The notes beneath the pieces are model-generated. The model saw nothing but the letters and a program-made list of their open reading frames with translations. It searched no databases and was not told where the DNA came from. DNA of 64,000 nt from an uncultured Methanosarcinales archaeon (GTDB lineage Archaea > Nanobdellota > Nanobdellia > Woesearchaeales > DATDXC01), in NCBI GenBank assembly GCA_964510025.1, contig CAZDZV010000006.1:11143-75142 (forward strand), read 5' to 3'. Each line of letters starts with the position of its first letter. The first letter of the stretch is position 1. The position numbers were made by a program, and so were the translations under genes. This document shows positions 16,943-55,579 of this stretch, in pieces.

Positions 16943-16955
16943 AAAAGTTTATAAA
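16943..16955 (+). promoter_or_regulatory. BRE/TATA-like box AAAAGTTTATAAA upstream of the ParB-like gene
   Basis: Matches the recurrent A-rich/TTTATA promoter pattern seen upstream of other genes in this window. About 115 nt before ATG 17070. Confidence 0.4.
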
Positions 16956-16991
16956 CAATCTAAGCTAGAGCACTTCAGAAGGGGGTTGTTT

Positions 16992-17053
16992 AATATTGTT
17001 CAACCATTTAACAATATTCAACCATTTTACAATTAAACCACAGATTTATGGTT
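16992..17053. promoter_or_regulatory. repeat cluster in the leader of the ParB-like gene (candidate parS/operator)
   Basis: Inverted repeat AATATTGTT (16992-17000) / AACAATATT (17010-17018). Direct 11-mer TTCAACCATTT at 16999 and 17017. AACCA (17036) -N8- TGGTT (17049). Confidence 0.5.
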
Positions 17054-17069
17054 AAAAAAGTGGGTTTTT

Positions 17070-17882
17070 ATGGGCAGAATTCAGGAGAGATTAGAGCTAG
17101 CCTTGTCAGAATTCGCAGCTCAGGAAAAAAAGGAAAAAGAGAGTATACTATTTCTACCTTTGAGTGAAATAAAGCTTAATCCCAACAGGATAAGAAGAAA
17201 GATCAACAGAGAGGAGATTGCAGATATGGCTAACAACCTGAAGAAGTTTGGCATACTTCAGCCTCTTGAAATCAACGGAAAAAAAGAAGTGGTCCTGGGC
17301 AACAGGAGATTTGAGGCTGCAAAACTAGCTTCTTTGGAGAAGGTTCCTTGTGTAATACGCAACAGCTCAGACATCTTGGAGATGGAAAAACAGCTTGTTT
17401 CCGACCTTCACACAAAGCATCTAAGTGTGCTTGAGAGGGCAATAGCTTTTAGCACCCTTATGGAACTGAAGTCAATGACCAAATACGCGCTTGCAAAATA
17501 TCTAAATCTAAGCCACAACCTTGTATGCAGGACCTTGGCGCTGCTGAAAGCAAATGAGAATACCATGAGATTGATCAGGCTAGGCAGAATCAGCCAGAGA
17601 AAGGTAGCTATGGTTTTGTATAGGCTGAAAGACAAAAAAATGGAAGATTTCGTGATTCAGGAGATAATAGGCAGAAAGATGAATATAGTTCAGGCAGGAA
17701 ATTTCATAGCAGAGATAAATGATCCTGAGATATTCAAGAAGCATTTCTTGACAAGAATAAAGGCTTTCAAAACAACAGTGATGCACTTTAGGGAAAAGCT
17801 CGAAAAACTCAATCTTACCGAAGAGCAAAGAAAAGAGATTCTGGAAGAGCTAAGGTCCATTGATTTCAGTGAAATATTATGA
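17070..17882 (+). CDS. ParB/Spo0J/KorB-like protein (ParB N-terminal domain + HTH)
   Basis: 270 aa. LPLSEIKLNPNRIRRKIN...ILQPLEI...VLGNRRFEAAKLA contains the GxxRxxA arginine patch. HTH KYALAKYLNLSHNLVCRTLALLK. No ParA is nearby. ATGA overlap with the next gene. Confidence 0.75.
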   Translation: MGRIQERLELALSEFAAQEKKEKESILFLPLSEIKLNPNRIRRKINREEIADMANNLKKFGILQPLEINGKKEVVLGNRRFEAAKLASLEKVPCVIRNSSDILEMEKQLVSDLHTKHLSVLERAIAFSTLMELKSMTKYALAKYLNLSHNLVCRTLALLKANENTMRLIRLGRISQRKVAMVLYRLKDKKMEDFVIQEIIGRKMNIVQAGNFIAEINDPEIFKKHFLTRIKAFKTTVMHFREKLEKLNLTEEQRKEILEELRSIDFSEIL

Positions 17883-18718
17883 AGGTTGATTTCGATTTCC
17901 ATACCCATACTGACGTATCTGATGGTAGCTTAAGCCCTTCTGCCCTGGTCAGAAAAGCCAAGCGTGAAGGATTGAGGCTTATTGCGATAACAGACCACGA
18001 CAATATTGACGGTATACCTGAAGCAGTTGAGACTGGCAGGAAGATAGGTATTGATGTCATTCCGGGTGTGGAGATTAGCATTGACTTCAAGGCTACGATG
18101 CATATGTGCGGCTACTTCATCGACATAACTGATACCCAGCTCAGAAAAGCCCTGAAGTTTGTGCAGGATGCTCGCAGAGACAGAAATCCTCAGATTATCG
18201 ATAAGCTGAACAAGCTGGGCATGGATGTGAGGATTGAAGATGTTAAGAAACATGCAGGCAGGGATCAGATTGGAAGGCCCCATTTCGCAAAAGCGCTTAT
18301 CGAGAAAGGCTATGTTACGACAAAAGAAGAGGCCTTTGAAAAATATCTGGCAAAAGGCAGGCCGGCGTATGTAGACAAGAAGCGGCTTGACAGGGAGAAA
18401 GCAGTGAAGACCATCCTGGATGCAGGAGGCACTGCTGTCCTTGCGCATCCCAAGCAGCTTCGCCTGGACACTGCCAAAGAATACAGGAAGCTTTTTATGG
18501 AGATGAAGGAATTGGGCGTCTCTGGCATCGAAGCATACTCAAGCTGCCATACAGAAGATGAAAATAAGATGTTCAGGGAGATCGCTGATGAGCTGGGGAT
18601 GCTTGTCACCGGAGGCAGCGACTTCCATGGTGACACAAAACAAGATGTTGAACTAGGGGAATTCGGAGAGAACATTGATATTGACGTGGATAAGTTGGTT
18701 GAAAAGATGAAAGCATGA
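17879..18718 (+). CDS. PHP-domain phosphoesterase, COG0613 (TrpH/YciV-like); candidate 3',5'-bisphosphate nucleotidase
   Basis: 279 aa. DFHTHTDVSDGSLSPSALVRKAKREGLRLIAITDHDNIDG, ...AHP..., GGSDFHG. The stops and starts at both ends overlap as ATGA. Confidence 0.8.
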   Translation: MKVDFDFHTHTDVSDGSLSPSALVRKAKREGLRLIAITDHDNIDGIPEAVETGRKIGIDVIPGVEISIDFKATMHMCGYFIDITDTQLRKALKFVQDARRDRNPQIIDKLNKLGMDVRIEDVKKHAGRDQIGRPHFAKALIEKGYVTTKEEAFEKYLAKGRPAYVDKKRLDREKAVKTILDAGGTAVLAHPKQLRLDTAKEYRKLFMEMKELGVSGIEAYSSCHTEDENKMFREIADELGMLVTGGSDFHGDTKQDVELGEFGENIDIDVDKLVEKMKA

Positions 18719-20118
18719 GAGAAAAGCACATTTTCTGGCTTCTGCTTGTTTTTATTGTATATATGCATTTTGAAGACCTGGTGAAGCTCTATTTCAATTA
18801 TCATCCGATAGCGCATGGGTTCAAGTATGTTTTTGCCCTGGTATTCTTCCTTATATGGATTTTTCAGATTGGGGTAGTTAATACAAGATTTACGATACCT
18901 CTGGCTGTTTATCTGTTCTTTGTATTTGTCCAGTTCATAAATCCCCTCATGTTTGGAAAACAGGGCTTTATGTTGTCGGTTATTGGGTCGCTTTACTATA
19001 TAGCATTTGTGCCCTTGTTTTTTGTTGCCCATCGGGTATTTGATATAGAAAGGCTGAAAAAGACACTATGGATTGTCTTAGGCTTGGCTTGCTTTTCAGC
19101 TCTGGCAGCGCATATACAGTTCTTCCTTGGCTGGCAGAGATACCTCCAGCTGATGCCTTACAGCCATGAGATGTTCCTGAGGACCAAAAACTTTGTTTTC
19201 CATGGGCCTTTGGCTTTCAGCGTAAAGCCCCCAAGATACTGGTATGTTGCAGGCATAATGATCAGCAGCATTTTTGTTCTTTCTGAAAAGAAAAAGCTCA
19301 TAGCTGGCTTTCTGGGCCTTAACTGCTTGCTTGCTTTGGCCCTTTCAGGAATGAGGTTTGCCATGGCAGCTTCTTTTTTTTCCCTGATGATAGTCTTTTT
19401 CTTTGGACTAAGAAAGCAGAAAATATCTAATGCGATGAGGATAGCTGCAGTTTTGATACTGCTATTGACTATGTTTTTCCCTTTCTCGATGCTTCCCAAG
19501 CAAAGGTACATTCAGTTCATCACAAATCCTGTTGGTACATATATCCAGCAAAGAGGGAGGATGTGGCCACAGTTTTTCAGGGATATCGTCAAATATCCGT
19601 TAGGCACAGGATTGAGGGCCGGAGGGCATATTGACACCGAAAGGTTTAAGGTACCTGATGTATCGATGCGTGCCGGAGAAAACTACATAGCAGTCATCGC
19701 TTCCCAGATTGGCATATTTGGGCTGATTGCAGTGCTTTGGCTATATGTTGCGATAGCCCGAAAATTCTATGAAAACTTGTCCCTGAGGAGATTCAGATAT
19801 TTTGTCAGTCTGGGCATATTTGCCCTGCTATTTTCCTTTATGTTTGAGGTGGGTTTTTTCCCGGGAGAAGGCCCGAGCTACTGGATGTTCTGGCTGTTTT
19901 CAGGTGTCTTGTTCAAAATAGATAAGATGGAGGTACAAAAGATGCGAAAAACATATTCTTTGGCTAGCGAAAGTTTTTTTCTCAGGGGAATTCCTGATGT
20001 AAGGGTATGGCTCTTACAAAGCAAATTTGTCAAGCTGGGCCATAGGATATTCTGTTGTTTCAGGAATTCAAGGTTTTTTAGGTTTATTGAGAATATAGTC
20101 AAGTATGCGGAAATTTAA
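18715..20118 (+). CDS. polytopic membrane protein, O-antigen ligase/polymerase (Wzy_C)-like
   Basis: 467 aa, about 10-12 hydrophobic helices. The loop GTGLRAGGHIDTERF lies between helices, as in the Wzy_C family. Confidence 0.5.
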   Translation: MREKHIFWLLLVFIVYMHFEDLVKLYFNYHPIAHGFKYVFALVFFLIWIFQIGVVNTRFTIPLAVYLFFVFVQFINPLMFGKQGFMLSVIGSLYYIAFVPLFFVAHRVFDIERLKKTLWIVLGLACFSALAAHIQFFLGWQRYLQLMPYSHEMFLRTKNFVFHGPLAFSVKPPRYWYVAGIMISSIFVLSEKKKLIAGFLGLNCLLALALSGMRFAMAASFFSLMIVFFFGLRKQKISNAMRIAAVLILLLTMFFPFSMLPKQRYIQFITNPVGTYIQQRGRMWPQFFRDIVKYPLGTGLRAGGHIDTERFKVPDVSMRAGENYIAVIASQIGIFGLIAVLWLYVAIARKFYENLSLRRFRYFVSLGIFALLFSFMFEVGFFPGEGPSYWMFWLFSGVLFKIDKMEVQKMRKTYSLASESFFLRGIPDVRVWLLQSKFVKLGHRIFCCFRNSRFFRFIENIVKYAEI

Positions 20119-20893
20119 GGTCCTGGTTGCCATACTATCGCTGATTGTCGTCGTGGAACTAGTTTTGAGGTTATTCGGTTTTGGGAACCCTGTGCTCTAC
20201 GTTGAGGACCCGGATATAGGGTATCTGCCGAAAGCCAATCAAAGCATATACAGGTTTGGCAACAAAATATACTACAATGAATATCATCAAAGGTCTGATG
20301 ACCTGATGGCAGATCCAGACTATAGGGTATTTATGTTGGGTGATTCTGTCCTGAATGGTGGGACCTTAATAGACCAGAAAGATACAATCAGTGAGATATT
20401 AGAGAGGCAGTTAAATTCATTCTGTAATTGTAAAGGCGAGGTCCTAAGCGCATCTGCCAAAGGATGGGCAATAGAAAATGAGTATGAATACCTTAGAAAA
20501 TTCGGCACTTTTAATTCAAGTCTGATTATATGGGTGATAAATGAAGGTGATTTGTACCAAAAAAAGAATTTGGGCCGAGACTATCCGTCAAAACCTTACT
20601 TATTTGCTTTGTCTAAGGTATTTTTCCACTATCTGCGCCCGAGAAAATCCGCTTCTGGATCCCAGAATCCGCCGTTGTCCTTTCTTTCACTTTTGAAGAC
20701 TGACTCTCAAGTCGTTATAGTGCAAATACCTAAAAGAAGATCTACTTCAGGAAAGCTGGATATTCAATTAGAAAGAATTGATATCAGGCTTAGTGACAAT
20801 GCGTACAGGGATGATATCCACCTTAACAGGCAAGGCAATTATATTGCCAGTGAAATTATATTTTCCACTATTAAGGACAAAATATTAGACTGA
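20105..20893 (+). CDS. membrane-anchored SGNH/GDSL-type hydrolase
   Basis: 262 aa. N-terminal TM. Block I FMLGDSVLNGG and block V DDIHLN (DxxH). Confidence 0.6.
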   Translation: MRKFKVLVAILSLIVVVELVLRLFGFGNPVLYVEDPDIGYLPKANQSIYRFGNKIYYNEYHQRSDDLMADPDYRVFMLGDSVLNGGTLIDQKDTISEILERQLNSFCNCKGEVLSASAKGWAIENEYEYLRKFGTFNSSLIIWVINEGDLYQKKNLGRDYPSKPYLFALSKVFFHYLRPRKSASGSQNPPLSFLSLLKTDSQVVIVQIPKRRSTSGKLDIQLERIDIRLSDNAYRDDIHLNRQGNYIASEIIFSTIKDKILD

Positions 20894-20937
20894 AAATCAG
20901 CCGATTATTGAAAAGTCTCTGCTAAAATAATCATAAG

Positions 20938-21762
20938 ATGGAAGGATATTTGATAATAGCAGCTTACCAACAAAAGTTCCTTGAGATGGCCTCGAATCTA
21001 GCACTATCGATAAGGTTGAAGGATGACAGGCCAATAGCAATCGCAGTTAAGGACATTAAGGTTGATCCAGGCTCTAAAAGAATATTTGATCACATAATTG
21101 AGATACCGCATGAAAAGTCCAGAAAGGCGCATCTTAATAAGTTTATTATGAATGAACTTACCCCTTTCAGCAAAACGATGTACATTGATGCAGATTGCCT
21201 AATGGTCAAGGATGATATTTCTATTATTTGGAAAAAGCTAAAGAAATACAATTTCACAGTACAGGGGACCAAGGTGGAATATGGAAACCATAGAGGGATT
21301 GACGTTTTAAATGTCAAAGACAAACTTGGCATTCCTTATTTTGTAAAGTCAAATAGCGGATTAATTTATTTTGATAAAACTAAAAAAACAAAGAAAGTTT
21401 TTGAGAAATTGAATTGGTATTTGTTGAAAGATGAAAAGATACTGCGTGTTCCATTTCGCGGTCAAATCAAAGATGAGACTTATATCGGTGCTGTAATGGG
21501 GCACCTTGAGCTTGAACCATTTCCAGTTGTATTTAGACATTATTTTCAGCTCAAGCAATGGATGCAGTGTGTATCAGCTAGGTATTGTGCAGAGATCGAT
21601 GTTTTGAAAGGAAAATCCAAGATAACCTTCCGAGATGGCCATACTGATAGCCCAACGGTCGCGCACTTTGTCGGCTTTGTAGGCAAAAGGCAGCTTTATT
21701 TAAGGGAATCGAATAGGCTAAGAAAAGAATTTGGATTTTCTAAAAATAAGATTTTATGCTGA
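20938..21762 (+). CDS. putative GT-A-fold glycosyltransferase (GT8-like, DxD)
   Basis: 274 aa. MYIDADCLMVKDD is a DxD motif in a nucleotide-diphospho-sugar-transferase-like context. The family call is tentative. Confidence 0.4.
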   Translation: MEGYLIIAAYQQKFLEMASNLALSIRLKDDRPIAIAVKDIKVDPGSKRIFDHIIEIPHEKSRKAHLNKFIMNELTPFSKTMYIDADCLMVKDDISIIWKKLKKYNFTVQGTKVEYGNHRGIDVLNVKDKLGIPYFVKSNSGLIYFDKTKKTKKVFEKLNWYLLKDEKILRVPFRGQIKDETYIGAVMGHLELEPFPVVFRHYFQLKQWMQCVSARYCAEIDVLKGKSKITFRDGHTDSPTVAHFVGFVGKRQLYLRESNRLRKEFGFSKNKILC

Positions 21763-22667
21763 ATAGACCAAGTTGTACATTATCATTCTTCGTGGCAAGA
21801 ACAGATGTCTCATTTATGATGCATACCATACCCCATCTGGTGCGGATGGCTAATTATCCATTTAGTAAAAAAATTATTTTTGTAGATTCAAAGGATCTGA
21901 AAAGCGACAAGAAAAACCGGGCTAATATAGGGACACTAGAAGAAGTCAGAGATAAATGCAAGGAGCTGCAAGATCAGAATATAATTGATGAGATTATTGA
22001 CTTTGATTATACACATCCTATCGTAGCAGAGACATACAGAAAATATTTTGAAAAAAATTTGAGACATACCCATAATTGGAAAGGTTACCCGGTATATGGA
22101 AATCTTTTTGCAATTGAAAACTGCGATTCAGATTATTTATTGCATTTTGATAGCGACATACTAATGTATCAAGACAACAATTTTAGCTGGGTTGATGCGA
22201 GTATGAAGATAATGGGGGGTAATTGTAACATAGTTACGACCAGGCCCCTCGCAGGCCCATCTGAAAAATCTTCGCCAGGATATCACTTAAGCCAGACATT
22301 TGGAAGTCGATGCTATTTGATACATACTAAAAGACTTAAACAGATATTACCCCTGCCCCTTTTGGTAAGCTTCAGACGCACAAGAATACTGGATTCCTTT
22401 CCCCAGCGAATCAAAAAAAAGTTATATTTGAGTTTCGAAAAGGGCGAGCTGGATTCATGGGAATTGATGGTTGGAGCAGCGCTGAGGAAAAACAGGAAAT
22501 TTCGGGCAATACTATCTTCAGATAAGGCGTGGACTTTGCACCCAAAGGATCATGGTGAGCAATTTATTAGGTTGCTTCCCGAAATTATCCAGAGGATTGA
22601 GCATAAAGATTTTCCTTTGGAACAGGAAAAGAAATACGATCTTGATTTGAATTTATGGACTCGATAA
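21756..22667 (+). CDS. putative GT-A-fold glycosyltransferase
   Basis: 303 aa. KKIIFVDSKD ... LLHFDSDILMYQ (DxD). Tentative. Confidence 0.3.
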   Translation: MLNRPSCTLSFFVARTDVSFMMHTIPHLVRMANYPFSKKIIFVDSKDLKSDKKNRANIGTLEEVRDKCKELQDQNIIDEIIDFDYTHPIVAETYRKYFEKNLRHTHNWKGYPVYGNLFAIENCDSDYLLHFDSDILMYQDNNFSWVDASMKIMGGNCNIVTTRPLAGPSEKSSPGYHLSQTFGSRCYLIHTKRLKQILPLPLLVSFRRTRILDSFPQRIKKKLYLSFEKGELDSWELMVGAALRKNRKFRAILSSDKAWTLHPKDHGEQFIRLLPEIIQRIEHKDFPLEQEKKYDLDLNLWTR

Positions 22668-23683
22668 GAAAGAAACCAAAAATATTTTTCTATTTGCCTG
22701 AGGAATATCTTCCGCAAGGCCAGATACCAGAGGATTATACAGAATTCTGGGACTACTGTGTAAAGAACTGGAATGGGTACTATGCGGGAATTCTAGTCTG
22801 GACCCTTAAGACGTACCTATTGCTTAAAGATTATGTTTCATGCAAATTAGTTACAAACATTCCTGAAAAAGGGATAATCATTGCTCATAGAAAATCCTTA
22901 CCTGCAAAACCGAAGCCGAAGCAGCTCTTTGTTTGCATCAAGGCAGATAAGTCAGTACACCCATATTCGCAGATCCATCTGGTGCAAAATTCTTGTGACT
23001 GTCTCTTCAAAAGGTCACCCGGACTGTGGCAGACATACTATGTCCCCCGTTGGCCCCAGGATAAATTGAAGCCAAGGTCAAAATCGAGAGGCACAAGACT
23101 AGAGAATGTTGGTTATTATGGGGTAAGACGGGAGCTGGCCAAAGAGTTACAGTCTAAAAAATTTGAGAGACTTATGCAATCGAACGGTTTTAAGTGGCAT
23201 ATTTTTTCCAATCCGAAGAAGTGGGTTGATTACAGCAAAACAGATGCTATTGTAGCGGTTAGGAGTTTTAAAAAACAGGGATTCAATAATAAGCTAGCGT
23301 CTAAACTATATAATGCGTGGCGAGCAGGTGTACCTGTATTATTGGGGCCAGAGACAGCTTATCAAAATGAGAAAAAAAGCCGGTTTGATTATATGGAAGT
23401 AAATTCAGCAAATGAAATAATCTCAGCACTTAAAAGCTTAAGAAAGAATCATAGGTTATACAAGCAAATGGTGAATAATGGAATTATCCGATCCAAAGAG
23501 GTCAGTCAGAATAAGATTATCGGTCTTTGGAAATCTTTTTTGGTGAATGTTGCAGTTCCTGCATATCGAAGGCACTGTAAAAATCGTATTTCCACTAACA
23601 TGTTCCTGCTGCAGAGATATTTTTATAACGTATATTATCAACTTCATTTTAAATTTAGGTCGAAAATTTTGTATGGCATATAA
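22655..23683 (+). CDS. putative GT-B-like glycosyltransferase
   Basis: 342 aa. C-terminal NNKLASKLYNAWRAGVPVLLGPE resembles the GT-B donor-binding helix. Tentative. Confidence 0.3.
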   Translation: MDSIRKKPKIFFYLPEEYLPQGQIPEDYTEFWDYCVKNWNGYYAGILVWTLKTYLLLKDYVSCKLVTNIPEKGIIIAHRKSLPAKPKPKQLFVCIKADKSVHPYSQIHLVQNSCDCLFKRSPGLWQTYYVPRWPQDKLKPRSKSRGTRLENVGYYGVRRELAKELQSKKFERLMQSNGFKWHIFSNPKKWVDYSKTDAIVAVRSFKKQGFNNKLASKLYNAWRAGVPVLLGPETAYQNEKKSRFDYMEVNSANEIISALKSLRKNHRLYKQMVNNGIIRSKEVSQNKIIGLWKSFLVNVAVPAYRRHCKNRISTNMFLLQRYFYNVYYQLHFKFRSKILYGI

Positions 23684-24194
23684 TAAAATATTTGGGATAG
23701 GTCTTTCAAAAACTGGGACTACATCTTTAGCTAGGGCCTTGGAGATTTTGGGATTTAGGACTGTTCACTCCCCTAGGAAGTCCTATTTATATGAGAAAAG
23801 AAGAGGCCTTCCATATTTCTCTACATTAGAAGAATATAGGGGTTTTACAGATTTTCCTTGTTGGGCAATATACAAAGAAGTGGATATTTTGTATCCGGGC
23901 AGCAAATTTATCCTAACTGTTCGAAATCCTCATGATTGGTACGTCAGCAGAAAGAAGCATTATAAAGCAAGACTGAAACAGGATATCAAACTTGATTGGG
24001 ATATGAGCAAAAAGTCAATGGATAAACTTCTGAAACATAACCAAGAAGTGATGGGGTATTTTAAGAGAAGAAAAAAAGATTTACTAGTGCTTGATATTGC
24101 AAAGGGAGAAGGTTGGGACAAGCTGTGCCGGTTCCTGCAGGTCCAAGAACCTTCCTTAACATTCCCCCACCTTAACAAGTCAGAATGTCTGTGA
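23673..24194 (+). CDS. sulfotransferase-family protein (1 of 3)
   Basis: ATG 23673 gives MAYNKIFGIGLSKTGTTSLARALEILGF, a PAPS 5'-phosphosulfate-binding P-loop-like motif. The ORF track start at 23547 overlaps the previous gene and is probably over-extended. Confidence 0.6.
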   Translation: MAYNKIFGIGLSKTGTTSLARALEILGFRTVHSPRKSYLYEKRRGLPYFSTLEEYRGFTDFPCWAIYKEVDILYPGSKFILTVRNPHDWYVSRKKHYKARLKQDIKLDWDMSKKSMDKLLKHNQEVMGYFKRRKKDLLVLDIAKGEGWDKLCRFLQVQEPSLTFPHLNKSECL

Positions 24195-25051
24195 AACCTA
24201 TTGTTTCCGTGATTATACCTGTCTATAATGATTTCAGGATAGTAAAATGTCTAAAAGCTCTGAAGAATCAGACATATCCAAGAGAAAGATATGAGATCAT
24301 AGTAGTTGACAACAACTCTGACAAACACTTCCTGACAAATCTTAGGAAATATAAAATAAGATTATTGTCTGCAAAAGAAGGGACTTATGCAGCCAGAAAT
24401 AAGGGGATTAAGGCAGCCAAAGGGGATATATTAGCATTTACTGATGCTGACTGCATACCTGCAAAAGAGTGGATAGAAAAAGGGGTAGATGCTATTCGCA
24501 ATCAGGCAGCTGGATTAGTAGCAGGAAAAATTGAGTTGTTTCCAAAAGGAAACAGGCCGACCATTGCAGAGATGTTTGAAATCATTACTGGATTTAGGCA
24601 AGAACTTTATGTTAAAAAATGGCATTTTGGAGCTACAGCAAATGTCTTTACAAAGAAGCAAGTGATTAATAAGGTTGGGCCTTTTAATGATTACCTAATA
24701 TCTGGTGGTGACTTAGAATTCGGAAAAAGGATTTTTGAAGCAGGCTATATGCAAATCTATGCACCTGAAGTTATTGTCTGGCATCCGGCAAGAGGCTCTG
24801 TCTTGAAGATATTGGGAAAGCATCGCAGGGTAGTGAGGGGCATAAACTGCATACAAAAGACTAAATCCATAAAGAAATTATTGGTGGATATTAAGGATGA
24901 CTGGCCGCAGCTGGCAGATTTTAGAGAAATTTTAGGGGATCGACGCCTAAAAAAATTTAGGTTAAAGGCATCTATATTTTTTATTTTACTCCTTGTTCGT
25001 TTTGCACGAACATCACAAAGAATATTTTTTATAGACCGCAAAAATAGCTAA
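24185..25051 (+). CDS. GT2 glycosyltransferase
   Basis: VSVIIPVYNDFRIVKCLKALKNQTYPRERYEIIVVDNNS ... AFTDADCIP (DxD). Confidence 0.85.
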   Translation: MSVKPIVSVIIPVYNDFRIVKCLKALKNQTYPRERYEIIVVDNNSDKHFLTNLRKYKIRLLSAKEGTYAARNKGIKAAKGDILAFTDADCIPAKEWIEKGVDAIRNQAAGLVAGKIELFPKGNRPTIAEMFEIITGFRQELYVKKWHFGATANVFTKKQVINKVGPFNDYLISGGDLEFGKRIFEAGYMQIYAPEVIVWHPARGSVLKILGKHRRVVRGINCIQKTKSIKKLLVDIKDDWPQLADFREILGDRRLKKFRLKASIFFILLLVRFARTSQRIFFIDRKNS

Positions 25052-26091
25052 TGAGAAGGAAAGCAGCGCTTTTATTCCCAACATTCCATGGTGGAGGTGC
25101 GGAAGCAGTATGTGCCTGGATATTAGATGCTTTGAAAGGCAGATATGATATAGATTTATTCACCTGTCAAAAAATTACGGCAGAAGAACTTAACAGGTTT
25201 TATGGAACCAAATTATCCAGAAACTCGTTTAGGCTTATTTATAGCAAGCTATTCAATGCGCTTATCCGGATTAACAAAATTTTGCCTTTTGATCCTAATC
25301 TTAGAAGCAGACTGCTAAAAATTACCTTTGAAAAATTTAAGCAAGATTATGATCTTGTTATAAATGGGAAGGATGAAATAGACATCAGTGAAAAAAGTAT
25401 TCATTATATCCATTTTGCAGGCAATCTCATTAAGGGCAAACCATTGCATAAGCATCGTTACATAGCGAATTCCAGAAGTACGGCTAAGCGTGCTGGCTTT
25501 AGGGATATAGGGGTAGTCTATCCGCCCGTGTGTAAAAGGTTTAAAAAAGTTCCCTGGAAATCAAAAGAAGAAGGCTTCATAATAATAGGCAGGATTACAG
25601 AAGAAAAGGGTACACATAAGGCAATTCAAATACTGCAGAAAGTGAGGGCCAAAGGATATGAGGTTAACCTCCATATCGTAGGGACAGTTTATAATTGGCG
25701 CTATTTTGGTTTGGTGAAAAAGATGGCCAGGAAAAGGGATTGGGTGATCCTACATAAGTCAATTTCTAACTATCGGCTTAAAAAGTTGTTGGAAAAGAAT
25801 AAATATGGCATACATTGTAAAGGCGGTGAGCCCTTCGGTATCGATCCTGCGGAAGTGCTTTATTCAGGCGGCATACCGTTTGTACGTAATAAAGGGGGGC
25901 AGACTGAGATTGTCGGAGACAAAAGGCTGATATTCGGGTCCGAGGATGAGGCTGTAGAGAAGATATGCAAGGTGCTTAGCTCAAAAAAAATTCAGGCTCA
26001 TTTATTAAAAAAACTAAATAAAAGAAAAAAAATATTGGGATGCGACAGGTTTAGAGAGAATTTTTTGAAGGCTATCCACAAAATGCAATGA
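25051..26091 (+). CDS. GT4-type (GT-B) glycosyltransferase
   Basis: 346 aa. EKGTHKAIQIL...GEPFGIDPAEVLYSGGIPFV, an E-x7-E-like region. Confidence 0.6.
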   Translation: MRRKAALLFPTFHGGGAEAVCAWILDALKGRYDIDLFTCQKITAEELNRFYGTKLSRNSFRLIYSKLFNALIRINKILPFDPNLRSRLLKITFEKFKQDYDLVINGKDEIDISEKSIHYIHFAGNLIKGKPLHKHRYIANSRSTAKRAGFRDIGVVYPPVCKRFKKVPWKSKEEGFIIIGRITEEKGTHKAIQILQKVRAKGYEVNLHIVGTVYNWRYFGLVKKMARKRDWVILHKSISNYRLKKLLEKNKYGIHCKGGEPFGIDPAEVLYSGGIPFVRNKGGQTEIVGDKRLIFGSEDEAVEKICKVLSSKKIQAHLLKKLNKRKKILGCDRFRENFLKAIHKMQ

Positions 26092-26915
26092 AGAGAGGCA
26101 TCTATCTCTTAGCAAATGACCAGGTCTTAGATAATACGCTCGCATTAATCAATAGCATACGTTTTTTTGATCCATATGCATCAATTATCATGATACCTTA
26201 CGATTGTCATGATGTCCGCATAACAACTATTCTGAGAGAGAAATATGGCATTCCGAAGTACCGGAATGATTCGCTGCTCAATAGAATTGACCTGAAAATT
26301 AAGGAGTTTTTTGGAAAGAAATTTTTTACCAGACCTAATCAGTTTAGGAAGCAAGCCTGTTGGTTTGGACCTTTTGATGAATTTCTTTATCTAGACACCG
26401 ACATTGTGGTTTTTGAAAGAATAATTAACAATCTAGAACATCTTAAAAACAAGGATTTTGTTTTTTGTGACTATCAGCACAAGAACGGAATAAAATATTT
26501 GTTTAATCCGCCAATCAAGAATGCCTTAGAAAAAGAGGATCTGAAATTTGTTTTTAACGCTGGTTTTTGGGGATCAAGAAAAGAACTGATAACAGAGCGC
26601 AAGCTATATGGCGCACTTGAAGAATGCGCCAAAAATATGAATTTTTTTGATTTTTCAGCAAAAGTTACTGATATGCCAATTTTTAATTATTTAGTTTTAA
26701 GGAAAATAAAAAAAAGAATCAATTTGGTAAGGGATCTAGAAAGAAAAGGACCAGGAAATTGGGCAGGGATGGATCATTTTATCAGAAAAGGGAACCGGCT
26801 TTTTGATCCAAATGTAAAGCAGTACCTCAAATACCTGCATTGGGCTGGGATTAATATCCAAAAAGGTTGTCCTTACTATGATGTATGGAATTACTATCGG
26901 AGATTGAATAAGTGA
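26088..26915 (+). CDS. putative GT-A-fold glycosyltransferase (GT8-like)
   Basis: 275 aa. GIYLLANDQVLDNTLALINSIR ... FLYLDTDIVVF (DxD). Tentative. Confidence 0.35.
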   Translation: MKRGIYLLANDQVLDNTLALINSIRFFDPYASIIMIPYDCHDVRITTILREKYGIPKYRNDSLLNRIDLKIKEFFGKKFFTRPNQFRKQACWFGPFDEFLYLDTDIVVFERIINNLEHLKNKDFVFCDYQHKNGIKYLFNPPIKNALEKEDLKFVFNAGFWGSRKELITERKLYGALEECAKNMNFFDFSAKVTDMPIFNYLVLRKIKKRINLVRDLERKGPGNWAGMDHFIRKGNRLFDPNVKQYLKYLHWAGINIQKGCPYYDVWNYYRRLNK

Positions 26916-27667
26916 ATATCTGTTTTTCAACGCTCGCATTGGGAAAAAAGTACCAAGAAATGGCCAAGACCCTTGCCGCTGATATCAAAAAATTCAATCC
27001 AAAAATGAAGATAATTATTTTATCAGACGATACTAAGGTCTTTGAAGATATGGACAATGTGATGGCGATACATCATTGCCAGCAGGGAGTGATGTTCCCT
27101 TACCATGATAAAAGATTTGTTGTAGCTGAAGCGTTGAGACGATTTGACGCTACATTATTTGTAGATGCTGACAGCAGGTTGAACTCGTATGTTGATATAT
27201 CGGGCATATCAAGAGAGGATATATACTGTAACCAGACTGAAAATCTGATAGCTCACATTAAGAAATACAACCCAGATCGTTTATACCATGTAAACAAGAT
27301 AGCCAAGAAAATGTCAATTAATCCCGATAAGGTAACTTATATGGGAGAATCTTTTTTTTTTATCGGAACAAAAAAGATTCAGGATTTTATCTATTATTGG
27401 GGCAAGATAGTAGGATATTTGGAAATTCACAGGATTGTTGCAGGAGCAGGCATTTCGATGGGACTCGCTGCACATAAGGCAGGTATCAAAATATGTGAAT
27501 CAGACAGGTTGCTTACCGCTTCAAGATCCTTTGAACATATCAATATTGCCAAAAAAAAGAGTAAGCAGTCTCTTTACGAATCATTTAAGAACAGGTTCCT
27601 TTACCACTATAGGCTTAATAAAGCTAGGATAAAAGCTATATCAGATTTTGATTTTTACTACAGATAA
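26912..27667 (+). CDS. putative GT-A-fold glycosyltransferase
   Basis: 251 aa. GTG start in a GTGA overlap. LFVDADSRL (DxD). Contains a T10 run at 27352-27361. Tentative. Confidence 0.3.
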   Translation: MNICFSTLALGKKYQEMAKTLAADIKKFNPKMKIIILSDDTKVFEDMDNVMAIHHCQQGVMFPYHDKRFVVAEALRRFDATLFVDADSRLNSYVDISGISREDIYCNQTENLIAHIKKYNPDRLYHVNKIAKKMSINPDKVTYMGESFFFIGTKKIQDFIYYWGKIVGYLEIHRIVAGAGISMGLAAHKAGIKICESDRLLTASRSFEHINIAKKKSKQSLYESFKNRFLYHYRLNKARIKAISDFDFYYR

Positions 27668-27668
27668 T

Positions 27669-28598
27669 ATGAATGAACCTAAGCCTTTTCTCTCAATCGT
27701 GACACCAACATTGGGAAGATTTTCAGAATATTGGCTAGAATCATTGCTGTCAATTGAAGGGGATGTTGAGTTTATCTTGGCATATCCACCACATTCCGAT
27801 ACCCTTACGATAAACGACCTTAGACTAAAGGTCATTATTAGCGATTTTATTGGGGAGGTCATGCAAAGAGCAGCTGGATTAAGGCATGCGAAAGGAAAAT
27901 ATGTTTTAGCATTGGATGACGATGATTATGTGCACCCCAATATAGTTGAATTGGCTAAGGATTATTTTGATAAATATCCCGGAAGCTGGCTTTTTAGGTT
28001 GCAGAAACATGGTATCGATTACAAGAATATGCAGGATATTCGAGCCCCGTGGAAACCTGTCAAAAAAGTCGAGAAGATGAAGCTCTTAGAAATACCCATT
28101 GCTCCCCTAAGAAAAAGGTTTGAACCGATGGCTTTATGGCCCCAGTATAGAAGAAAAGACCATCATGGCATTCATTCAGAAAATTTCGTAGATAGGATAT
28201 GGAGAAACGATTTGGTACAGCCTGCAGTAGATGATTTTTTTGACTGTTTGAAAATTTTTGGACAGGTCAGATATATCCCCCCGAAAAATTCATATGGATT
28301 TGACAGAGTTATGTCCCTTTTTCTGCAGGCCAAATACTTTGAGCCTGGAATAAAAATAGGGCATTGGATTAAAGATTCAGAAGCACAGATAAGAAAAGTA
28401 CATATGCCAAATGAGTTAAAGCCTGCTAGATTCCACTTTCTTTCCCATTTAGTTTTAGTGAAGAAATTTCCCCGATACGGCTACCTTTGGAACTTATTTT
28501 TTGAGACATTTTGGGATATACCCCGAAAAATTGGGAAGGCATTAAAGATCAGACAGCGGCAGAATCATAAACTGGGTAAGACGATTAAAATGAGGTAG
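27669..28598 (+). CDS. GT2-like glycosyltransferase
   Basis: ATG 27669 lies 1 nt after the previous stop; the ORF track starts at TTG 27648. LSIVTPTLGR ... VLALDDDDYV. Confidence 0.45.
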   Translation: MNEPKPFLSIVTPTLGRFSEYWLESLLSIEGDVEFILAYPPHSDTLTINDLRLKVIISDFIGEVMQRAAGLRHAKGKYVLALDDDDYVHPNIVELAKDYFDKYPGSWLFRLQKHGIDYKNMQDIRAPWKPVKKVEKMKLLEIPIAPLRKRFEPMALWPQYRRKDHHGIHSENFVDRIWRNDLVQPAVDDFFDCLKIFGQVRYIPPKNSYGFDRVMSLFLQAKYFEPGIKIGHWIKDSEAQIRKVHMPNELKPARFHFLSHLVLVKKFPRYGYLWNLFFETFWDIPRKIGKALKIRQRQNHKLGKTIKMR

Positions 28599-28612
28599 TC
28601 TGCAAGAAGAAA

Positions 28613-29476
28613 TTGGCTAACGAAACATATATTTCCGTGATTGTCCCCGTATATAACGGAGAGAAGACCATTGAGAGATGTTTATGCTCACTTGCAAATC
28701 AGCGCTATCCTAAAAAAAGATATGAAGTGATAATAGTCGACAATAATTCCACTGATGATACAAAAAAAATAATTGAGAAATATCCAGCTAAATATTTGTG
28801 TGAAAAAAAAAGAGGTTCTTATGCTGCAAGAAATAAAGGTATTAGATATGCTAAAGGCAGAATCTTGGCATTTACTGATGCAGACTGCATGGCTCATGTG
28901 AATTGGATAGCAGATGCTGTTAGGGAATTTTCAGACAAAAAAACCGGATGCGTCGCCGGAAGGATAGGTGCAGGTCAAAGAAATAGCCATATAGAAAGGT
29001 ATATTGCTAAAAAGAAGCTGCTTATACAAAAGAAAGAACCATGCGGTCTGCCGCTCCCCTATGCAAAGACAGCAAACGCTTTTTATAGAAAAGAAGTTTT
29101 TGACAAGATAGGATTGTTTGAAGAATGGATTTCCGGAGGAGATGCTGATCTCTGCTGGAGGATGCAGAAGAAAACAGAATATGGGCTGAAGTTTTCGCGT
29201 GCGCTAGTTATACATAAACATAGGACCTCAACAGCAGGATTGTTTAAGCAGTGCTTTAAGTGGGGTATAGGCAATGCCTTCTTGAAAAAAAAATACCGAG
29301 AAATGCCGCAAATATCATTTAGGGGCCGTTTGTGGATTATTTGCCGGATCCTCTTCGGTTTGCCCATGCTTTTTTATCTGATCCTAAAAAAGGACTCATC
29401 TGACAGATTATTTGATAGGCTAGCATTTATTGGATGGCATTTAGGAATGTTTATCGGATTTATAAAAAAAAGATGA
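28613..29476 (+). CDS. GT2 glycosyltransferase (paralog of 24185..25051)
   Basis: ISVIVPVYNGEKTIERCLCSLANQRYPKKRYEVIIVDNNSTDDT ... AFTDADCMA. TTG start. Confidence 0.85.
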   Translation: MANETYISVIVPVYNGEKTIERCLCSLANQRYPKKRYEVIIVDNNSTDDTKKIIEKYPAKYLCEKKRGSYAARNKGIRYAKGRILAFTDADCMAHVNWIADAVREFSDKKTGCVAGRIGAGQRNSHIERYIAKKKLLIQKKEPCGLPLPYAKTANAFYRKEVFDKIGLFEEWISGGDADLCWRMQKKTEYGLKFSRALVIHKHRTSTAGLFKQCFKWGIGNAFLKKKYREMPQISFRGRLWIICRILFGLPMLFYLILKKDSSDRLFDRLAFIGWHLGMFIGFIKKR

Positions 29477-30303: not shown

Positions 30304-30309
30304 CATAAT

Positions 30310-38053: not shown

Positions 38054-38170
38054 GGATTCTTTACATTGTCTAAATGAAGGATATAATAGCTCAAGCTACA
38101 ACAAGATGAAACTAAGTACGATACAAATTAAAGAAAGGATTGTAGGTTTGTTCAGTTTAGTAGGAACAAG

Positions 38171-43222: not shown

Positions 43223-43223
43223 G

Positions 43224-45595: not shown

Positions 45596-45617
45596 ACTAC
45601 CTGCCTAGGCGAAGATT

Positions 45618-52966: not shown

Positions 52967-52975
52967 TTCTTCACC

Positions 52976-55563: not shown

Positions 55564-55579
55564 TATTTCCCCAGTATAG

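What the first reader, a model, noticed from the sequence alone, without database searches (positions are those of the whole stretch)
16943..17882. Orphan ParB/KorB-like protein with its own upstream repeat cluster heads the glycan super-operon
The 270-aa protein has a bona fide ParB N-terminal domain (GNRRFEAA arginine patch) and an HTH. No ParA is nearby, and the gene is translationally coupled (ATGA) to the PHP gene and through it to the rest of the 29-kb block. Its ~115-nt leader contains several repeats. One is the inverted repeat AATATTGTT-N9-AACAATATT. Another is the 11-mer TTCAACCATTT repeated 18 bp apart. A third is AACCA-N8-TGGTT. This is parS- or operator-like. ParB-family proteins that act as transcription regulators are known from plasmids (KorB). 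A ParB-like regulator, or CTP-dependent clamp, controlling a polysaccharide operon in an archaeon would be unusual.
Basis: partly seen in the sequence, partly recalled or inferred. Interest (0 to 1): 0.5.

Follow-up and report, generated by a model that had tools for sequence, protein, structure and literature searches.

The report
Archaeal ParB-like regulator heading glycan operons
A small clade of tiny (DPANN) archaea has taken a bacterial-type chromosome-partition protein (ParB), dropped its ParA partner, and placed it with a conserved 20-base palindromic DNA site at the head of cell-surface sugar-polymer gene clusters, probably as an operon-specific switch.

Summary
ORF 17070-17882 is a ParB_N + HTH_ParB protein. 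It overlaps the next gene by ATGA and heads a 29-kb same-strand block of glycosyltransferase, sulfotransferase, Wzy, ABC-exporter and Bac_transf genes. No ParA is present.

The leader repeats are two tandem 18-bp-spaced copies of a 20-bp site (consensus TATTGTwmmATGGTTGAATA; 16997-17016 and 17015-17034, minus orientation).

- **Gene placement.** In 12 further loci with readable downstream sequence (47-78% protein identity; the window makes 13), the gene sits at or one gene inside the 5' end of a polysaccharide cluster. Cluster content and upstream flanks differ between loci.
- **Site conservation.** A leave-one-out weight matrix puts the top hit of each of 20 non-redundant loci just 5' of the ParB gene (17 loci) or between it and the first glycan gene (3 loci).

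The protein keeps GxRR and the base-binding loop. It lacks both CTP-hydrolysis residues, the canonical Box III and the canonical C-terminal domain.

Best reading: an operon-specific ParB-family regulator that works like KorB, VirB or BisD. DNA binding, nucleotide binding and the sign of regulation are inferred, not shown. I found no published description.

The parts
16948..16955 (+). TATA-box-like TTTATAAA. This is the presumed archaeal promoter of the parB-like gene and operon.
   Evidence: Read directly from the sequence. It is invariant in the alignment of four close relatives and recurs upstream in most orthologous loci. Its promoter function is inferred.
16981..16985 (+). GGGGG run about 24 nt downstream of the TATA box, with unexplained conservation. 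It may mark the transcription start region.
   Evidence: TTTATA-N18-30-GGGGG occurs once in the window. The same arrangement is seen in most orthologous upstream regions. No conserved upstream ORF follows it.
16997..17016 (-). Copy 1 of the conserved 20-bp site. On the minus strand it reads TATTGTTAAATGGTTGAACA.
Evidence: The leave-one-out matrix scores it 24.1 bits, the top hit of the 64-kb window.
17015..17034 (-). Copy 2 of the 20-bp site. On the minus strand it reads AATTGTAAAATGGTTGAATA. It lies 18 bp from copy 1 and overlaps it by 2 bp.
   Evidence: It scores 23.5 bits, the second-best hit in the window, with the next hit at 9.0 bits. The repeat finder reports the 18-nt direct repeat.
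17047..17063 (+). Conserved block TATGGTTAAAAAAGTGG. It holds a forward partial half-site (ATGGTTAAA) followed by a Shine-Dalgarno-like GTGG, 6-22 nt before the start codon.
   Evidence: It is conserved, with a single G-to-A change in L035 (TATGATT), in window, L003, L015 and L035 while the flanking spacers are full of indels. It pairs as an inverted repeat with 17017-17025 (I6).
17070..17882 (+). ParB-family protein of 270 aa. The N-terminal ParB/Srx nucleotide-binding fold carries G77-x-R79-R80. A ParB-type HTH covers about residues 117-217. The C-terminal tail (219-270) is helical and non-canonical.
   Evidence: Pfam and NCBIfam matches. PDB sequence matches to ParB and Noc. AlphaFold2 mean pLDDT 86, with Foldseek matches to ParB, Noc and KorB. 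Clade alignment.
17879..18718 (+). PHP-family phosphoesterase overlapping the parB-like gene by ATGA. Its best model is 3',5'-nucleoside bisphosphate (pAp) phosphatase. It is not a conserved partner of the ParB gene.
   Evidence: PF02811 and NF041577 at 240.7 bits, below the equivalog cutoff of 400. It follows the ParB-like gene only in the window and L001.
18715..46229 (+). Co-directional polysaccharide biosynthesis block. It encodes Wzy-type polymerase, many GT2 and GT4 glycosyltransferases, four sulfotransferase-domain proteins, an ABC exporter, a hexapeptide acyltransferase, DUF4330 and the initiating Bac_transf.
   Evidence: Pfam scans. ORF map showing overlaps and short gaps.

Best explanation
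The gene encodes a ParA-independent member of the ParB/Noc family, present in a small clade of DPANN archaea, that acts as an operon-specific DNA-binding regulator of cell-surface polysaccharide gene clusters.

Inferred mechanism:
1. A dimer recognises the 20-bp imperfect palindrome TATTGTwmmATGGTTGAATA through its ParB-type HTH. The site lies between the promoter (TATA) and the first ORF of the glycan operon. There are two tandem copies plus a partial one in this window.
2. The conserved N-terminal ParB/Srx domain binds a nucleoside triphosphate, with CTP the default expectation. It probably drives N-domain engagement and clamping, as in KorB, VirB, BisD and Noc. Hydrolysis should be very slow or absent because both catalytic residues are replaced.
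3. Occupancy of the site, possibly with spreading into the operon, sets transcription of the parB-like gene and the downstream glycan genes.

The site sits downstream of the TATA box and next to or overlapping the ribosome-binding region. I therefore lean towards negative (auto)regulation that is relieved or modulated by nucleotide state. The sign is not determined.

Shown: family and fold, absence of ParA, conserved placement at glycan clusters, and the conserved site and its position.
Inferred: that this protein binds the site, that it binds NTP, that it clamps or slides, and the regulatory outcome.
For: **Family and fold**
- ParB_N + HTH_ParB, with TIGR00180 above its cutoff.
- Best solved relatives are B. 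subtilis ParB-CDP (4e-24) and Noc.
- The AlphaFold2 model has pLDDT 86. Foldseek gives TM up to 0.85 to Caulobacter ParB, and KorB is also matched.

**Conserved context**
- All 12 further loci with downstream sequence are followed by, or embedded at the 5' end of, Wzz/Wzy/DUF4330/GT/AsnB/NeuB genes. These are L003, L005, L007, L008, L010, L022, L028, L031, L035, L036, L037 and L038, at 47-78% protein identity.
- Upstream flanks differ: YdjM, PCNA/RNase J, an opposite-strand GT, or Wzz.

**Conserved site**
- The leave-one-out matrix top hit in 20 of 20 non-redundant loci lies in the intergenic region 5' of the ParB gene (17 loci) or between it and the first glycan gene (3 loci).
- Scores are 14-30 bits, against 13.6 bits or less for any other position.

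**Spacing rule**
- When the site is 5' of the ParB gene, the next gene overlaps or starts within 30 nt (one exception, L008).
- In L020, L023 and L038 the gap is 73-190 nt and holds the site; in L020 and L023 a TATA box precedes it.
- The site therefore tracks the head of the glycan operon, not the ParB gene itself.

**DNA-level element**
- The site is dyad-symmetric (L037: TATTAAACCA|TGGTTGAATA).
- Its orientation flips between loci.
- The leader RNA fold is not unusual, z = -0.6, and there is no significant Rfam hit (one sub-threshold TD-2 match, E = 0.59).

**Protein-site co-variation**
- K178 next to R177 goes with the left half GTTAA. Non-Lys at 178 goes with GTACC.
- Recognition helix SHT[ST]VCKT goes with a G-rich centre.
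- R177 aligns with Noc R186, equivalent to Caulobacter position 201, a known specificity position (PMC7383237).

**Nucleotide pocket under selection**
- G77, R79, R80, R42, F60, G61, Q64, P65 and D112 are each invariant in 38 of 38 sequences.

**Precedent**
- HTH-ParB homologues outside segregation (KorB, VirB, BisD, Noc) all act as CTP-dependent clamps (PMC12704722).
- VirB lacks one catalytic residue and has weak CTPase activity (PMC10770331).
Against: - There is no experimental evidence of any kind.
- The binder of the site is assigned by co-occurrence, plus co-variation that rests on only two or three evolutionary events.
- Box III (ENLQR) is replaced by SDLH[S/T]K, and Bsu N112, needed for N-engagement, is Asp here. 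Nucleotide binding or clamping may therefore be altered or lost.
- The canonical C-terminal dimerisation domain (PF23552) is absent from the clade. A closed clamp needs some other dimerisation, which is not shown.
- The site is 20 bp, not 16 bp as in parS and NBS, which implies a different dimer geometry.
- Only 64 kb of this genome and 20 kb or less of the others were seen, so further sites elsewhere cannot be excluded.
- A membrane-anchored wHTH protein (DUF7343) is encoded just upstream in this window and could be the regulator here, although most orthologous loci lack it.
Confidence: 0.55

Rival explanations
1. Chromosome organisation or segregation without ParA. The 20-bp site is a true centromere or SMC-loading parS, and the ParB-like protein marks a chromosomal locus. 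Adjacency to glycan genes is then hitch-hiking next to a hypervariable region.
For: - The protein passes the ParB/Spo0J domain model, and its closest solved relatives are chromosomal ParB and Noc.
- In bacteria, parS sites often lie at or in parB.
- The window and L035 share upstream synteny (Trm1, aEF-1beta, RtcA), so part of the conservation is plain synteny.
Against: - No ParA and no LG[KR]GL ParA-binding peptide were found.
- The clade is rare and patchy, with 3 hits among 185,579 GTDB species representatives. That is unlike an essential segregation factor.
- Upstream flanks differ widely while the glycan side is constant.
- In three loci the site moved to the promoter of the first glycan gene, downstream of the ParB gene.
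- No Orc1/Cdc6 was seen among the window ORFs scanned.
- The published survey judges archaeal HTH-ParBs unlikely to act in segregation (PMC12704722).
Confidence: 0.1
2. The conserved site is the operator of a different factor, such as the membrane-anchored DUF7343 wHTH protein encoded upstream or a lineage-wide transcription factor. The ParB-like protein would then do something else, for example nucleotide sensing or an enzymatic Srx/SerK-like role for glycan synthesis.
For: - The DUF7343/HTH_24 protein lies directly upstream in the window (16287-16934) and also in L003.
- ParB/Srx folds can be kinases or ATP binders (PMC12704722).
- The binder of the site has not been shown.
Against: - DUF7343 is absent within 5.8-8 kb upstream in L005, L007, L010, L036 and L037, which all have the site; L038 shows only about 2 kb upstream.
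- The ParB-like gene is the only gene adjacent to the site in all 20 loci.
- The protein keeps a complete ParB-type HTH with invariant recognition-helix residues S148, C153, T155 and L156.
- Variation in the HTH region tracks variation in the site.
Confidence: 0.12
3. Mobile-element or cassette-boundary remnant. The ParB-like gene and its site derive from a plasmid or integrative-element partition or maintenance module. The palindrome would mark a recombination boundary of exchangeable glycan cassettes rather than regulate transcription.
For: - Orphan ParBs are enriched on mobile elements (PMC12704722).
- Glycan clusters downstream differ entirely between close relatives while the ParB side is conserved.
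- The block has lower GC than its flanks.
- An integrase gene lies about 5 kb upstream in L005 and L006.
Against: - No clade member (35% identity or less) and no copy of the site were found in 2.9 million viral contigs.
- Flanks are housekeeping archaeal genes.
- No integrase, replication or conjugation genes lie next to the gene in most loci.
- The site always lies between a TATA box and a start codon, co-oriented with the operon's first gene. This fits expression control.
Confidence: 0.08
4. The repeats act at the RNA level, as a 5'-UTR structure controlling translation or stability, independently of the ParB-like protein.
For: - The repeats lie in the probable 5' UTR, downstream of the TATA box.
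- In many orthologues the site abuts the start codon and overlaps the ribosome-binding region.
Against: - The leader's folding energy is not unusual: z = -0.61, with 58 of 200 shuffles folding as well.
- There is no Rfam family; the best hit has E = 0.59.
- The site occurs in either orientation relative to the gene.
- Non-complementary positions within the palindrome are conserved in sequence rather than by pairing.
- L035 breaks the AACCA/TGGTT pairing.
Confidence: 0.03

Closest known systems
KorB of IncP-1 plasmid RK2, a ParB-family CTP-dependent sliding clamp and repressor
   Same: - It has a ParB/Srx N-domain plus an HTH.
- It binds palindromic operators at or at a distance from promoters and regulates operons.
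- Its structure is matched by the model (8qa8 and 8qa9, E about 2e-8).
- Its function is transcription, not only segregation (PMC12704722).
   Different: - KorB is plasmid-borne, bacterial, has a ParA partner (IncC) and a co-repressor (KorA), and has its own KorB domain and C-terminal domain.
- The archaeal protein is chromosomal and has no ParA. No KorB-domain (PF08535) hit was found.
- Its sequence is closer to Spo0J and Noc than to KorB.
- It has a 20-bp site and lacks both hydrolysis residues.
VirB of Shigella flexneri, a ParB-like CTP switch and anti-silencer that loads at virS
   Same: - It is an orphan ParB-like regulator with no ParA role.
- It loads at a parS-like palindrome near target promoters.
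- It has lost a CTP-hydrolysis residue and has very weak CTPase activity (PMC10770331).
- It controls AT-rich accessory gene clusters.
   Different: - VirB derives from P1-type plasmid ParB, acts against H-NS, and is bacterial.
- Here both catalytic residues and Box III are replaced.
- The host is an archaeon with different chromatin and a TBP/TFB-type promoter.
- Activation versus repression is unknown.
BisD of ICEclc (Pseudomonas), a ParB-like CTP clamp that activates genes at long distance
   Same: It is a ParB-like clamp used to switch on a long set of co-directional genes from a loading site (cited in PMC12704722).
   Different: BisD sits on an integrative conjugative element and works with BisC. 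No such partner or element context is seen here.
Noc, the nucleoid occlusion protein of Firmicutes, and its NBS site TATTTCCCGGGAAATA
   Same: - It is the best NCBIfam model by score (TIGR04285, 103.9 bits) and among the top structural matches.
- It is a ParA-independent ParB paralogue.
- It has Arg at the position equivalent to Noc R186 and a non-Arg residue (His or Asn) at the position of Noc Q158.
- The site shares the outer TATT...AATA of the NBS.
   Different: - The score is far below the Noc cutoff of 315.
- Noc binds dozens of sites across the chromosome and tethers DNA to the membrane through an N-terminal amphipathic helix.
- Here there is a single site cluster per locus at a glycan operon, and the site is 20 bp.
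- The nearest true Noc-like outgroup (P0047) sits next to ParA.
RfaH with ops/JUMPstart, and UpxY of Bacteroides: operon-specific factors for long polysaccharide operons (recalled from general knowledge)
   Same: This is a functional analogy only. A short conserved DNA element at the 5' end of otherwise hypervariable polysaccharide operons is paired with a dedicated factor.
   Different: These are unrelated proteins (NusG paralogues) that act on the elongating RNA polymerase. No sequence or structural relationship exists. The analogy has not been tested.

Membership tests
ParB/Spo0J/Noc family (Pfam ParB_N + HTH_ParB; TIGR00180) | N-terminal ParB/Srx domain with the GxRR (Box II) arginine pair | tested here: met
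   PF02195 at 3.4e-16. G77, R79 and R80 are invariant in 38 of 38 clade members.
ParB/Spo0J/Noc family (Pfam ParB_N + HTH_ParB; TIGR00180) | Central ParB-type helix-turn-helix DNA-binding domain | tested here: met
   PF17762 at 2.7e-11. TIGR00180 scores 90.1 bits against a cutoff of 58.45. The model superposes on the ParB and Noc DNA-binding domains (6y93, 6s6h).
ParB/Spo0J/Noc family (Pfam ParB_N + HTH_ParB; TIGR00180) | Base-contacting C-motif (Box I) loop | tested here: met
   The FGILQP loop aligns with Bsu HGILQP. F60, G61, Q64 and P65 are invariant, and R42 (Bsu R39) is invariant.
Canonical chromosomal ParB (CTPase clamp of ParABS) | Catalytic residues for CTP hydrolysis: Gln of Box I and Glu of GERR | tested here: not met
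   Bsu Q37 aligns with R40 (R in 35 of 38). Bsu E78 aligns with position 78, which is T, N, S, H, A, I or V and never E.
Canonical chromosomal ParB (CTPase clamp of ParABS) | Box III ENLQR P-motif | tested here: not met
   It is replaced by the clade-conserved SDLH[S/T]K. D112 is invariant at the place of Bsu N112.
Canonical chromosomal ParB (CTPase clamp of ParABS) | C-terminal dimerisation domain (PF23552) | tested here: not met
   No clade member carries PF23552, whereas most bacterial hits do. Residues 219-270 are predicted helical but match no solved ParB C-terminal domain.
Canonical chromosomal ParB (CTPase clamp of ParABS) | Adjacent ParA ATPase and the N-terminal ParA-binding peptide LG[KR]GL | tested here: not met
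   No deviant Walker A motif occurs in the window or in the 34 related loci then in hand (L001-L034). No ParA Pfam family appears in the neighbourhoods. The N-terminus is MG[KR]I[LQ]ERL. The outgroups do sit next to ParA.
Canonical chromosomal ParB (CTPase clamp of ParABS) | CTP binding and parS-stimulated clamp closure | not testable with these tools
   This needs DRaCALA or ITC and cross-linking. Published work finds that sequence and AlphaFold3 do not predict nucleotide specificity (PMC12704722).
Canonical chromosomal ParB (CTPase clamp of ParABS) | Cognate palindromic site close to the gene | tested here: met
   A 20-bp dyad-symmetric site lies next to the gene in 20 of 20 loci. It is 20 bp, not the 16-bp parS, and binding has not been shown.
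Noc (TIGR04285) | Score above the family cutoff, with many binding sites dispersed over the chromosome | tested here: not met
   The score is 103.9 bits against a cutoff of 315. Only one site cluster occurs in 64 kb, with the next best hit at 9 bits.
ParB-like transcription regulators (KorB, VirB, BisD): a functional class, not one sequence family | Binding site placed at the promoters or operons that are regulated, with no role for ParA | tested here: met
   The site always lies between a TATA-like box and the first ORF of the glycan operon, including three loci where it lies after the ParB gene. This is positional evidence only.
ParB-like transcription regulators (KorB, VirB, BisD): a functional class, not one sequence family | Demonstrated effect on transcription and NTP-dependent loading or sliding | not testable with these tools
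   This requires in vitro transcription, a reporter, ChIP and nucleotide assays.

The most novel reading that the evidence does not exclude
This would be the first ParB-type nucleotide-switch DNA clamp used for transcription control in Archaea. It would load at a 20-bp parS-like site at the head of long, AT-rich, horizontally exchangeable glycan operons and slide into them. There it would keep the whole operon expressible (anti-silencing or processivity) or shut it off. That makes it a functional counterpart of VirB/virS or RfaH/ops for archaeal surface polysaccharides. Having lost both catalytic residues, it would be a hydrolysis-dead switch, possibly reading CTP, the nucleotide that also feeds CMP- and CDP-sugar and dolichol-phosphate synthesis.
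Probability: 0.25. Interest if true: 0.8.

Novelty: new variant of a known kind. Interest (0 to 1): 0.62.

Why it matters
A recent large survey noted archaeal ParB proteins with the canonical HTH architecture. It called them scattered, rarely linked to ParA and of unknown role (PMC12704722). This finding gives one such clade three concrete things:
- a target process, cell-surface polysaccharide synthesis;
- a defined 20-bp candidate binding site;
- clear predictions that a ParB laboratory could test in vitro within weeks.

If confirmed, ParB-type nucleotide-switch regulation of transcription would extend from bacterial plasmids and pathogenicity elements to the archaeal domain. It would also add a new type of regulator for hypervariable glycan loci. 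Those loci shape the host-symbiont contact surface of DPANN archaea.

Tried and rejected
- **ParA nearby.** I searched all six frames of the window and the 34 related loci then in hand (L001-L034) for the deviant Walker A motif and found none. The outgroup controls did show ParA.
- **RNA element.** The Rfam E-value scan and RNA folding of the leader were both unremarkable.
- **Upstream ORF after the GGGGG run.** Candidate short ORFs in the window, L003 and L015 are not conserved. This was checked by eye on the sequences.
- **Extra copies of the motif inside the glycan block, as for parS or KorB operator arrays.** Hits of the 9-mer and 13-mer elsewhere are at chance level, and matrix scores are 13.6 bits or less.
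- **Defence-system membership.** The PADLOC scan found nothing meaningful.
- **Virus or mobile-element origin.** Viral contigs hold only relatives at 35% identity or less, and no copy of the site.
- **PHP as a conserved partner.** Rejected, because it follows the ParB gene only in this genome.
- **GTDB survey.** It returned only 3 loci. One is labelled Methanosarcinales and matches the P0021-type locus at the same 61% identity and query span, so it is probably mis-binned.
- **Bacterial sigma-70 and terminator scan.** It is uninformative for an archaeon.
- **Not used.** The 1.84-billion-protein profile search was not run.
Full report
**1. The observation**

The ORF 17070-17882 (+) encodes 270 aa.
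- It matches Pfam ParB_N (residues 25-113, 3.4e-16) and HTH_ParB (117-217, 2.7e-11).
- It passes NCBIfam TIGR00180 'ParB/RepB/Spo0J partition protein' at 90.1 bits against a cutoff of 58.45.
- The Noc model scores higher (103.9 bits) but is far below its cutoff of 315.
- The closest solved structures by sequence are B. subtilis ParB-CDP (6sdk, 4e-24), Noc (7nfu) and other chromosomal ParBs.
- An AlphaFold2 model built on 38 clade members has mean pLDDT 86. Foldseek retrieves ParB, Noc and KorB structures, with TM up to 0.85 to Caulobacter ParB.

The stop codon overlaps the start of the next gene (ATGA at 17879-17882). From there to 46229 all ORFs are on the + strand with overlaps or short gaps.

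None occurs elsewhere in the window.

**2. The surroundings**

The window is archaeal chromosome. It carries aIF5B, Trm1, aEF-1beta, RtcA and a CTP-dependent riboflavin kinase. Named homologues of the protein come from Woesearchaeota and Nanoarchaeota MAGs.

The 29-kb block encodes:
- a Wzy-type polymerase;
- about 17 GT2 or GT4 glycosyltransferases;
- four sulfotransferase-domain proteins;
- an ABC exporter;
- a hexapeptide acyltransferase;
- DUF4330;
- the initiating Bac_transf.

The PHP protein coupled to the ParB gene best matches 3',5'-nucleoside bisphosphate (pAp) phosphatase (240.7 bits). That activity would remove the by-product of the sulfotransferases. I read the PHP gene as part of this particular sulfated-glycan pathway, not as a partner of ParB.

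No ParA is present:
- No KGGxGK[ST] motif occurs in any frame of the window or of the 34 related loci then in hand (L001-L034).
- No ParA-type Pfam family appears in any neighbourhood.
- The nearest non-clade homologues do sit beside ParA: P0074 in a parAB operon and P0047 in a Noc-like arrangement. This serves as a positive control.

**3. The protein clade**

The database search finds about 46 clusters at 49-78% identity. All carry ParB_N + HTH_ParB without the C-terminal dimerisation domain PF23552. Scores then drop sharply from 232 to 88 bits, to bacterial Spo0J and Noc at about 32% identity.

The clade is rare:
- 3 loci among 185,579 GTDB species representatives;
- 20 loci in the metagenome collection;
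- none in viral contigs, where the best relative has 35% identity.

Alignment of 38 members gives these counts:
- Invariant: G77, R79, R80 (GxRR); R42; the base-contacting loop F60, G61, Q64, P65; and D112.
- Box I glutamine (B. subtilis Q37) is Arg in 35 of 38.
- The Glu of GERR (E78) is T, N, S, H, A, I or V and never Glu.
- Box III ENLQR is replaced by the clade-conserved SDLH[S/T]K.

The pocket is therefore under selection, but the protein should hydrolyse poorly if at all. VirB is a precedent: it lacks one of the two catalytic residues and has a kcat of about 0.1 per minute (PMC10770331). Nucleotide identity cannot be predicted from sequence (PMC12704722).

**4. Test one: is the gene tied to glycan clusters?**

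Yes, in every locus with readable downstream sequence.

| Locus (protein) | Genes next to the ParB-like gene |
|---|---|
| L003 (P0002) | Wzz, formyltransferase, aminotransferase, epimerase, Wzy |
| L035 (P0005) | Wzz, sulfatase, Wzy, GT4 genes |
| L036 (P0017) | DUF4330, Wzy, GT4, Bac_transf, GT2 genes |
| L005 (P0021) | Wzz, Wzy, GT4, radical SAM, deacetylase, GT2, Bac_transf |
| L010 (P0027) | Wzz just upstream; GT4, GT4, Wzy downstream |
| L007 (P0033) | unknown gene, GT4, AsnB, GT4 genes |
| L037 (P0036) | GT2, Alg14/Alg13-like, six more GT2 genes |
| L038 (P0045) | AsnB, GT4, NeuB, NeuC-like epimerase, NeuA-like CMP-transferase |
| L022 | GT4, GT4, GT8 |
| L028 | DUF4330, Wzy, GT4 |
| L031 | DUF4330, ABC, Wzy |
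| L008 (P0044) | weak Wzz-like gene |

Sources.

Upstream flanks vary: YdjM, PCNA/RNase J, opposite-strand GT or epimerase genes, or the Trm1-aEF1beta-RtcA synteny shared by the window and L035. The constant neighbour is therefore the glycan operon, whose content is different each time.

**5. Test two: is the repeat conserved?**

Yes, and it resolves into one element. In a common orientation the instances read TATTGT[T/A][A/C][A/C]ATGGTTGAATA.
- L037 has an almost perfect palindrome, TATTAAACCA|TGGTTGAATA.
- The divergent L030 and L031 carry TATTGTTTAAGGGTTTAATA and TATTGTTAAGGGGCTTAATA.

In the window the element occurs twice in tandem with an 18-bp period, in inverted orientation (16997-17016 and 17015-17034).

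A leave-one-out position weight matrix puts the best hit of each of 20 non-redundant loci (1.4-64 kb each) in one of two places:
- the intergenic region immediately 5' of the ParB gene (17 loci);
- between the ParB gene and the first glycan gene (3 loci).

Scores are 14-30 bits, against 13.6 bits or less at any other position.

In the three loci of the second kind (L020, L023, L038) the ParB-to-next-gene gap is 73-190 nt and contains the site; in L020 and L023 a TATA box precedes it. Elsewhere the next gene overlaps or starts within 30 nt, with L008 the one exception. The site therefore tracks the head of the glycan operon rather than the ParB gene as such.

**6. DNA or RNA, and who binds?**

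The evidence favours a DNA-level site:
- The element flips orientation between loci.
- Its non-complementary positions are conserved in sequence.
- The leader does not fold unusually well (z = -0.61).
- Rfam finds nothing significant.

The ParB-like gene is the only gene adjacent to the site in all loci. The DUF7343 wHTH gene upstream in the window is absent from most.

Variation in the DNA-contact region tracks the site:
- Lys at 178, next to R177, goes with the left half GTTAA. Non-Lys goes with GTACC.
- The recognition helix SHT[ST]VCKT of L030 and L031 goes with the G-rich centre.

Through the HMMER alignment to Noc, four positions map onto the ParB/Noc specificity positions 173, 179, 184 and 201 (PMC7383237):
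- H/N149 aligns with ParB R173 and Noc Q158.
- T155 aligns with position 179.
- K/E160 aligns with position 184.
- R177 aligns with ParB G201 and Noc R186.

Like Noc, the clade has a non-Arg residue at the first position and Arg at the last. Like the NBS, its site starts TATT and ends AATA. This is suggestive, not proof. The co-variation rests on two or three events, and the site is 20 bp rather than 16 bp.

**7. Mechanism**

Most likely (about 0.55) the protein is an operon-specific regulator. It would bind the site between the TATA box and the first ORF, and use its conserved ParB/Srx domain as a nucleotide switch.

Every characterised HTH-ParB outside segregation (KorB, VirB, BisD, Noc) is a CTP-dependent clamp (PMC12704722). 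Clamping and sliding is therefore the default expectation. I put it at about even odds because Box III and the C-terminal domain are non-canonical.

The operator position downstream of the TATA box and next to the ribosome-binding region leans towards repression or autoregulation. Activation or anti-silencing of a long, lower-GC operon is not excluded.

Rivals are listed separately:
- a ParA-less centromere or SMC-loading role (0.10);
- another factor binds the site (0.12);
- a mobile-cassette boundary (0.08);
- an RNA element (0.03).

**8. Comparison and novelty**

The protein is a member of the ParB/Spo0J/Noc sequence family. It fails four defining features of canonical ParABS ParB:
- the ParA partner;
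- the catalytic residues;
- Box III;
- the C-terminal domain.

It also fails the Noc cutoff. Functionally it most resembles KorB, VirB and BisD, and it is not a sequence member of their subfamilies.

[quoted passage not shown] It does not contain the word polysaccharide. Searches for ParB with Woesearchaeota, DPANN/glycosyltransferase, Wzy/Wzz or polysaccharide clusters found nothing relevant.

I rate it a new variant of a known kind: a ParB-family regulator in a new domain of life, with a new target process and a new site. Everything beyond sequence and comparative evidence remains to be shown experimentally.

**9. Unexplained**

A GGGGG run about 24 nt after the TATA box is conserved in most loci, yet the pattern occurs only once in this window. 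Its role is unknown. It could be the start-site region, a second protein site or a Shine-Dalgarno remnant.

Noticed in passing
window 16287-16934 (+): The gene directly upstream of the ParB-like gene encodes a probable membrane-anchored transcription factor. It has a signal or N-terminal CarboxypepD_reg-like domain, one transmembrane segment and a C-terminal DUF7343/HTH_24 winged helix. A homologue lies 5 kb upstream in L003, but most orthologous loci have none. It could be a second, envelope-sensing regulator of the same region.
   Followed up: partly
window 17879-18718 with 23547-24194, 29434-30303 and 38171-38935: The PHP protein best matches pAp (3',5'-nucleoside bisphosphate) phosphatase. 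The cluster also carries several sulfotransferase genes. This points to a sulfated glycan with built-in removal of the inhibitory by-product pAp. No PAPS-synthesis genes were looked for.
   Followed up: partly
window 16981-16985, and the equivalent position in L003, L005, L007, L008, L013, L015, L020, L021, L022, L028 and L035: A GGGGG run about 24 nt downstream of the TATA box is conserved across orthologous promoters. It is unique to this promoter within the 64-kb window. No conserved upstream ORF follows it, and its function is unknown.
   Followed up: partly
window 52037-56365 (-): A low-GC island (0.29 against about 0.42) encodes a DpnII-type restriction endonuclease, a Dam-like D12 methyltransferase, an N6/N4 methyltransferase and an AAA_15/DUF3226 (OLD-like) ATPase. 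It is probably a horizontally acquired GATC restriction-modification and defence island.
   Followed up: no
window 43224-44441; L028 1849-2676; L031 916-1743; L036 7813-8961; the first gene after the site in L020 and L023: A DUF4330 membrane protein recurs as the first gene after the ParB-like gene or the site in several loci, and also occurs inside the window's cluster. It is an uncharacterised but apparently core component of these archaeal glycan clusters.
   Followed up: no
L012 (CAYLIL010000002.1): A contig carrying the P0021-type ParB-glycan locus is deposited in a MAG labelled 'uncultured Methanosarcinales archaeon'. All other named relatives are Woesearchaeota or Nanoarchaeota, so this contig is probably mis-binned.
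   Followed up: no
window residues 1-12 of the ParB-like protein (17070-17105): The N-terminal peptide MG[K/R]I[L/Q]ERLE is conserved across the clade and predicted helical. It sits where canonical ParB has its ParA-binding LG[K/R]GL peptide and where Noc has its membrane-targeting helix. It may contact an unknown partner.
   Followed up: no
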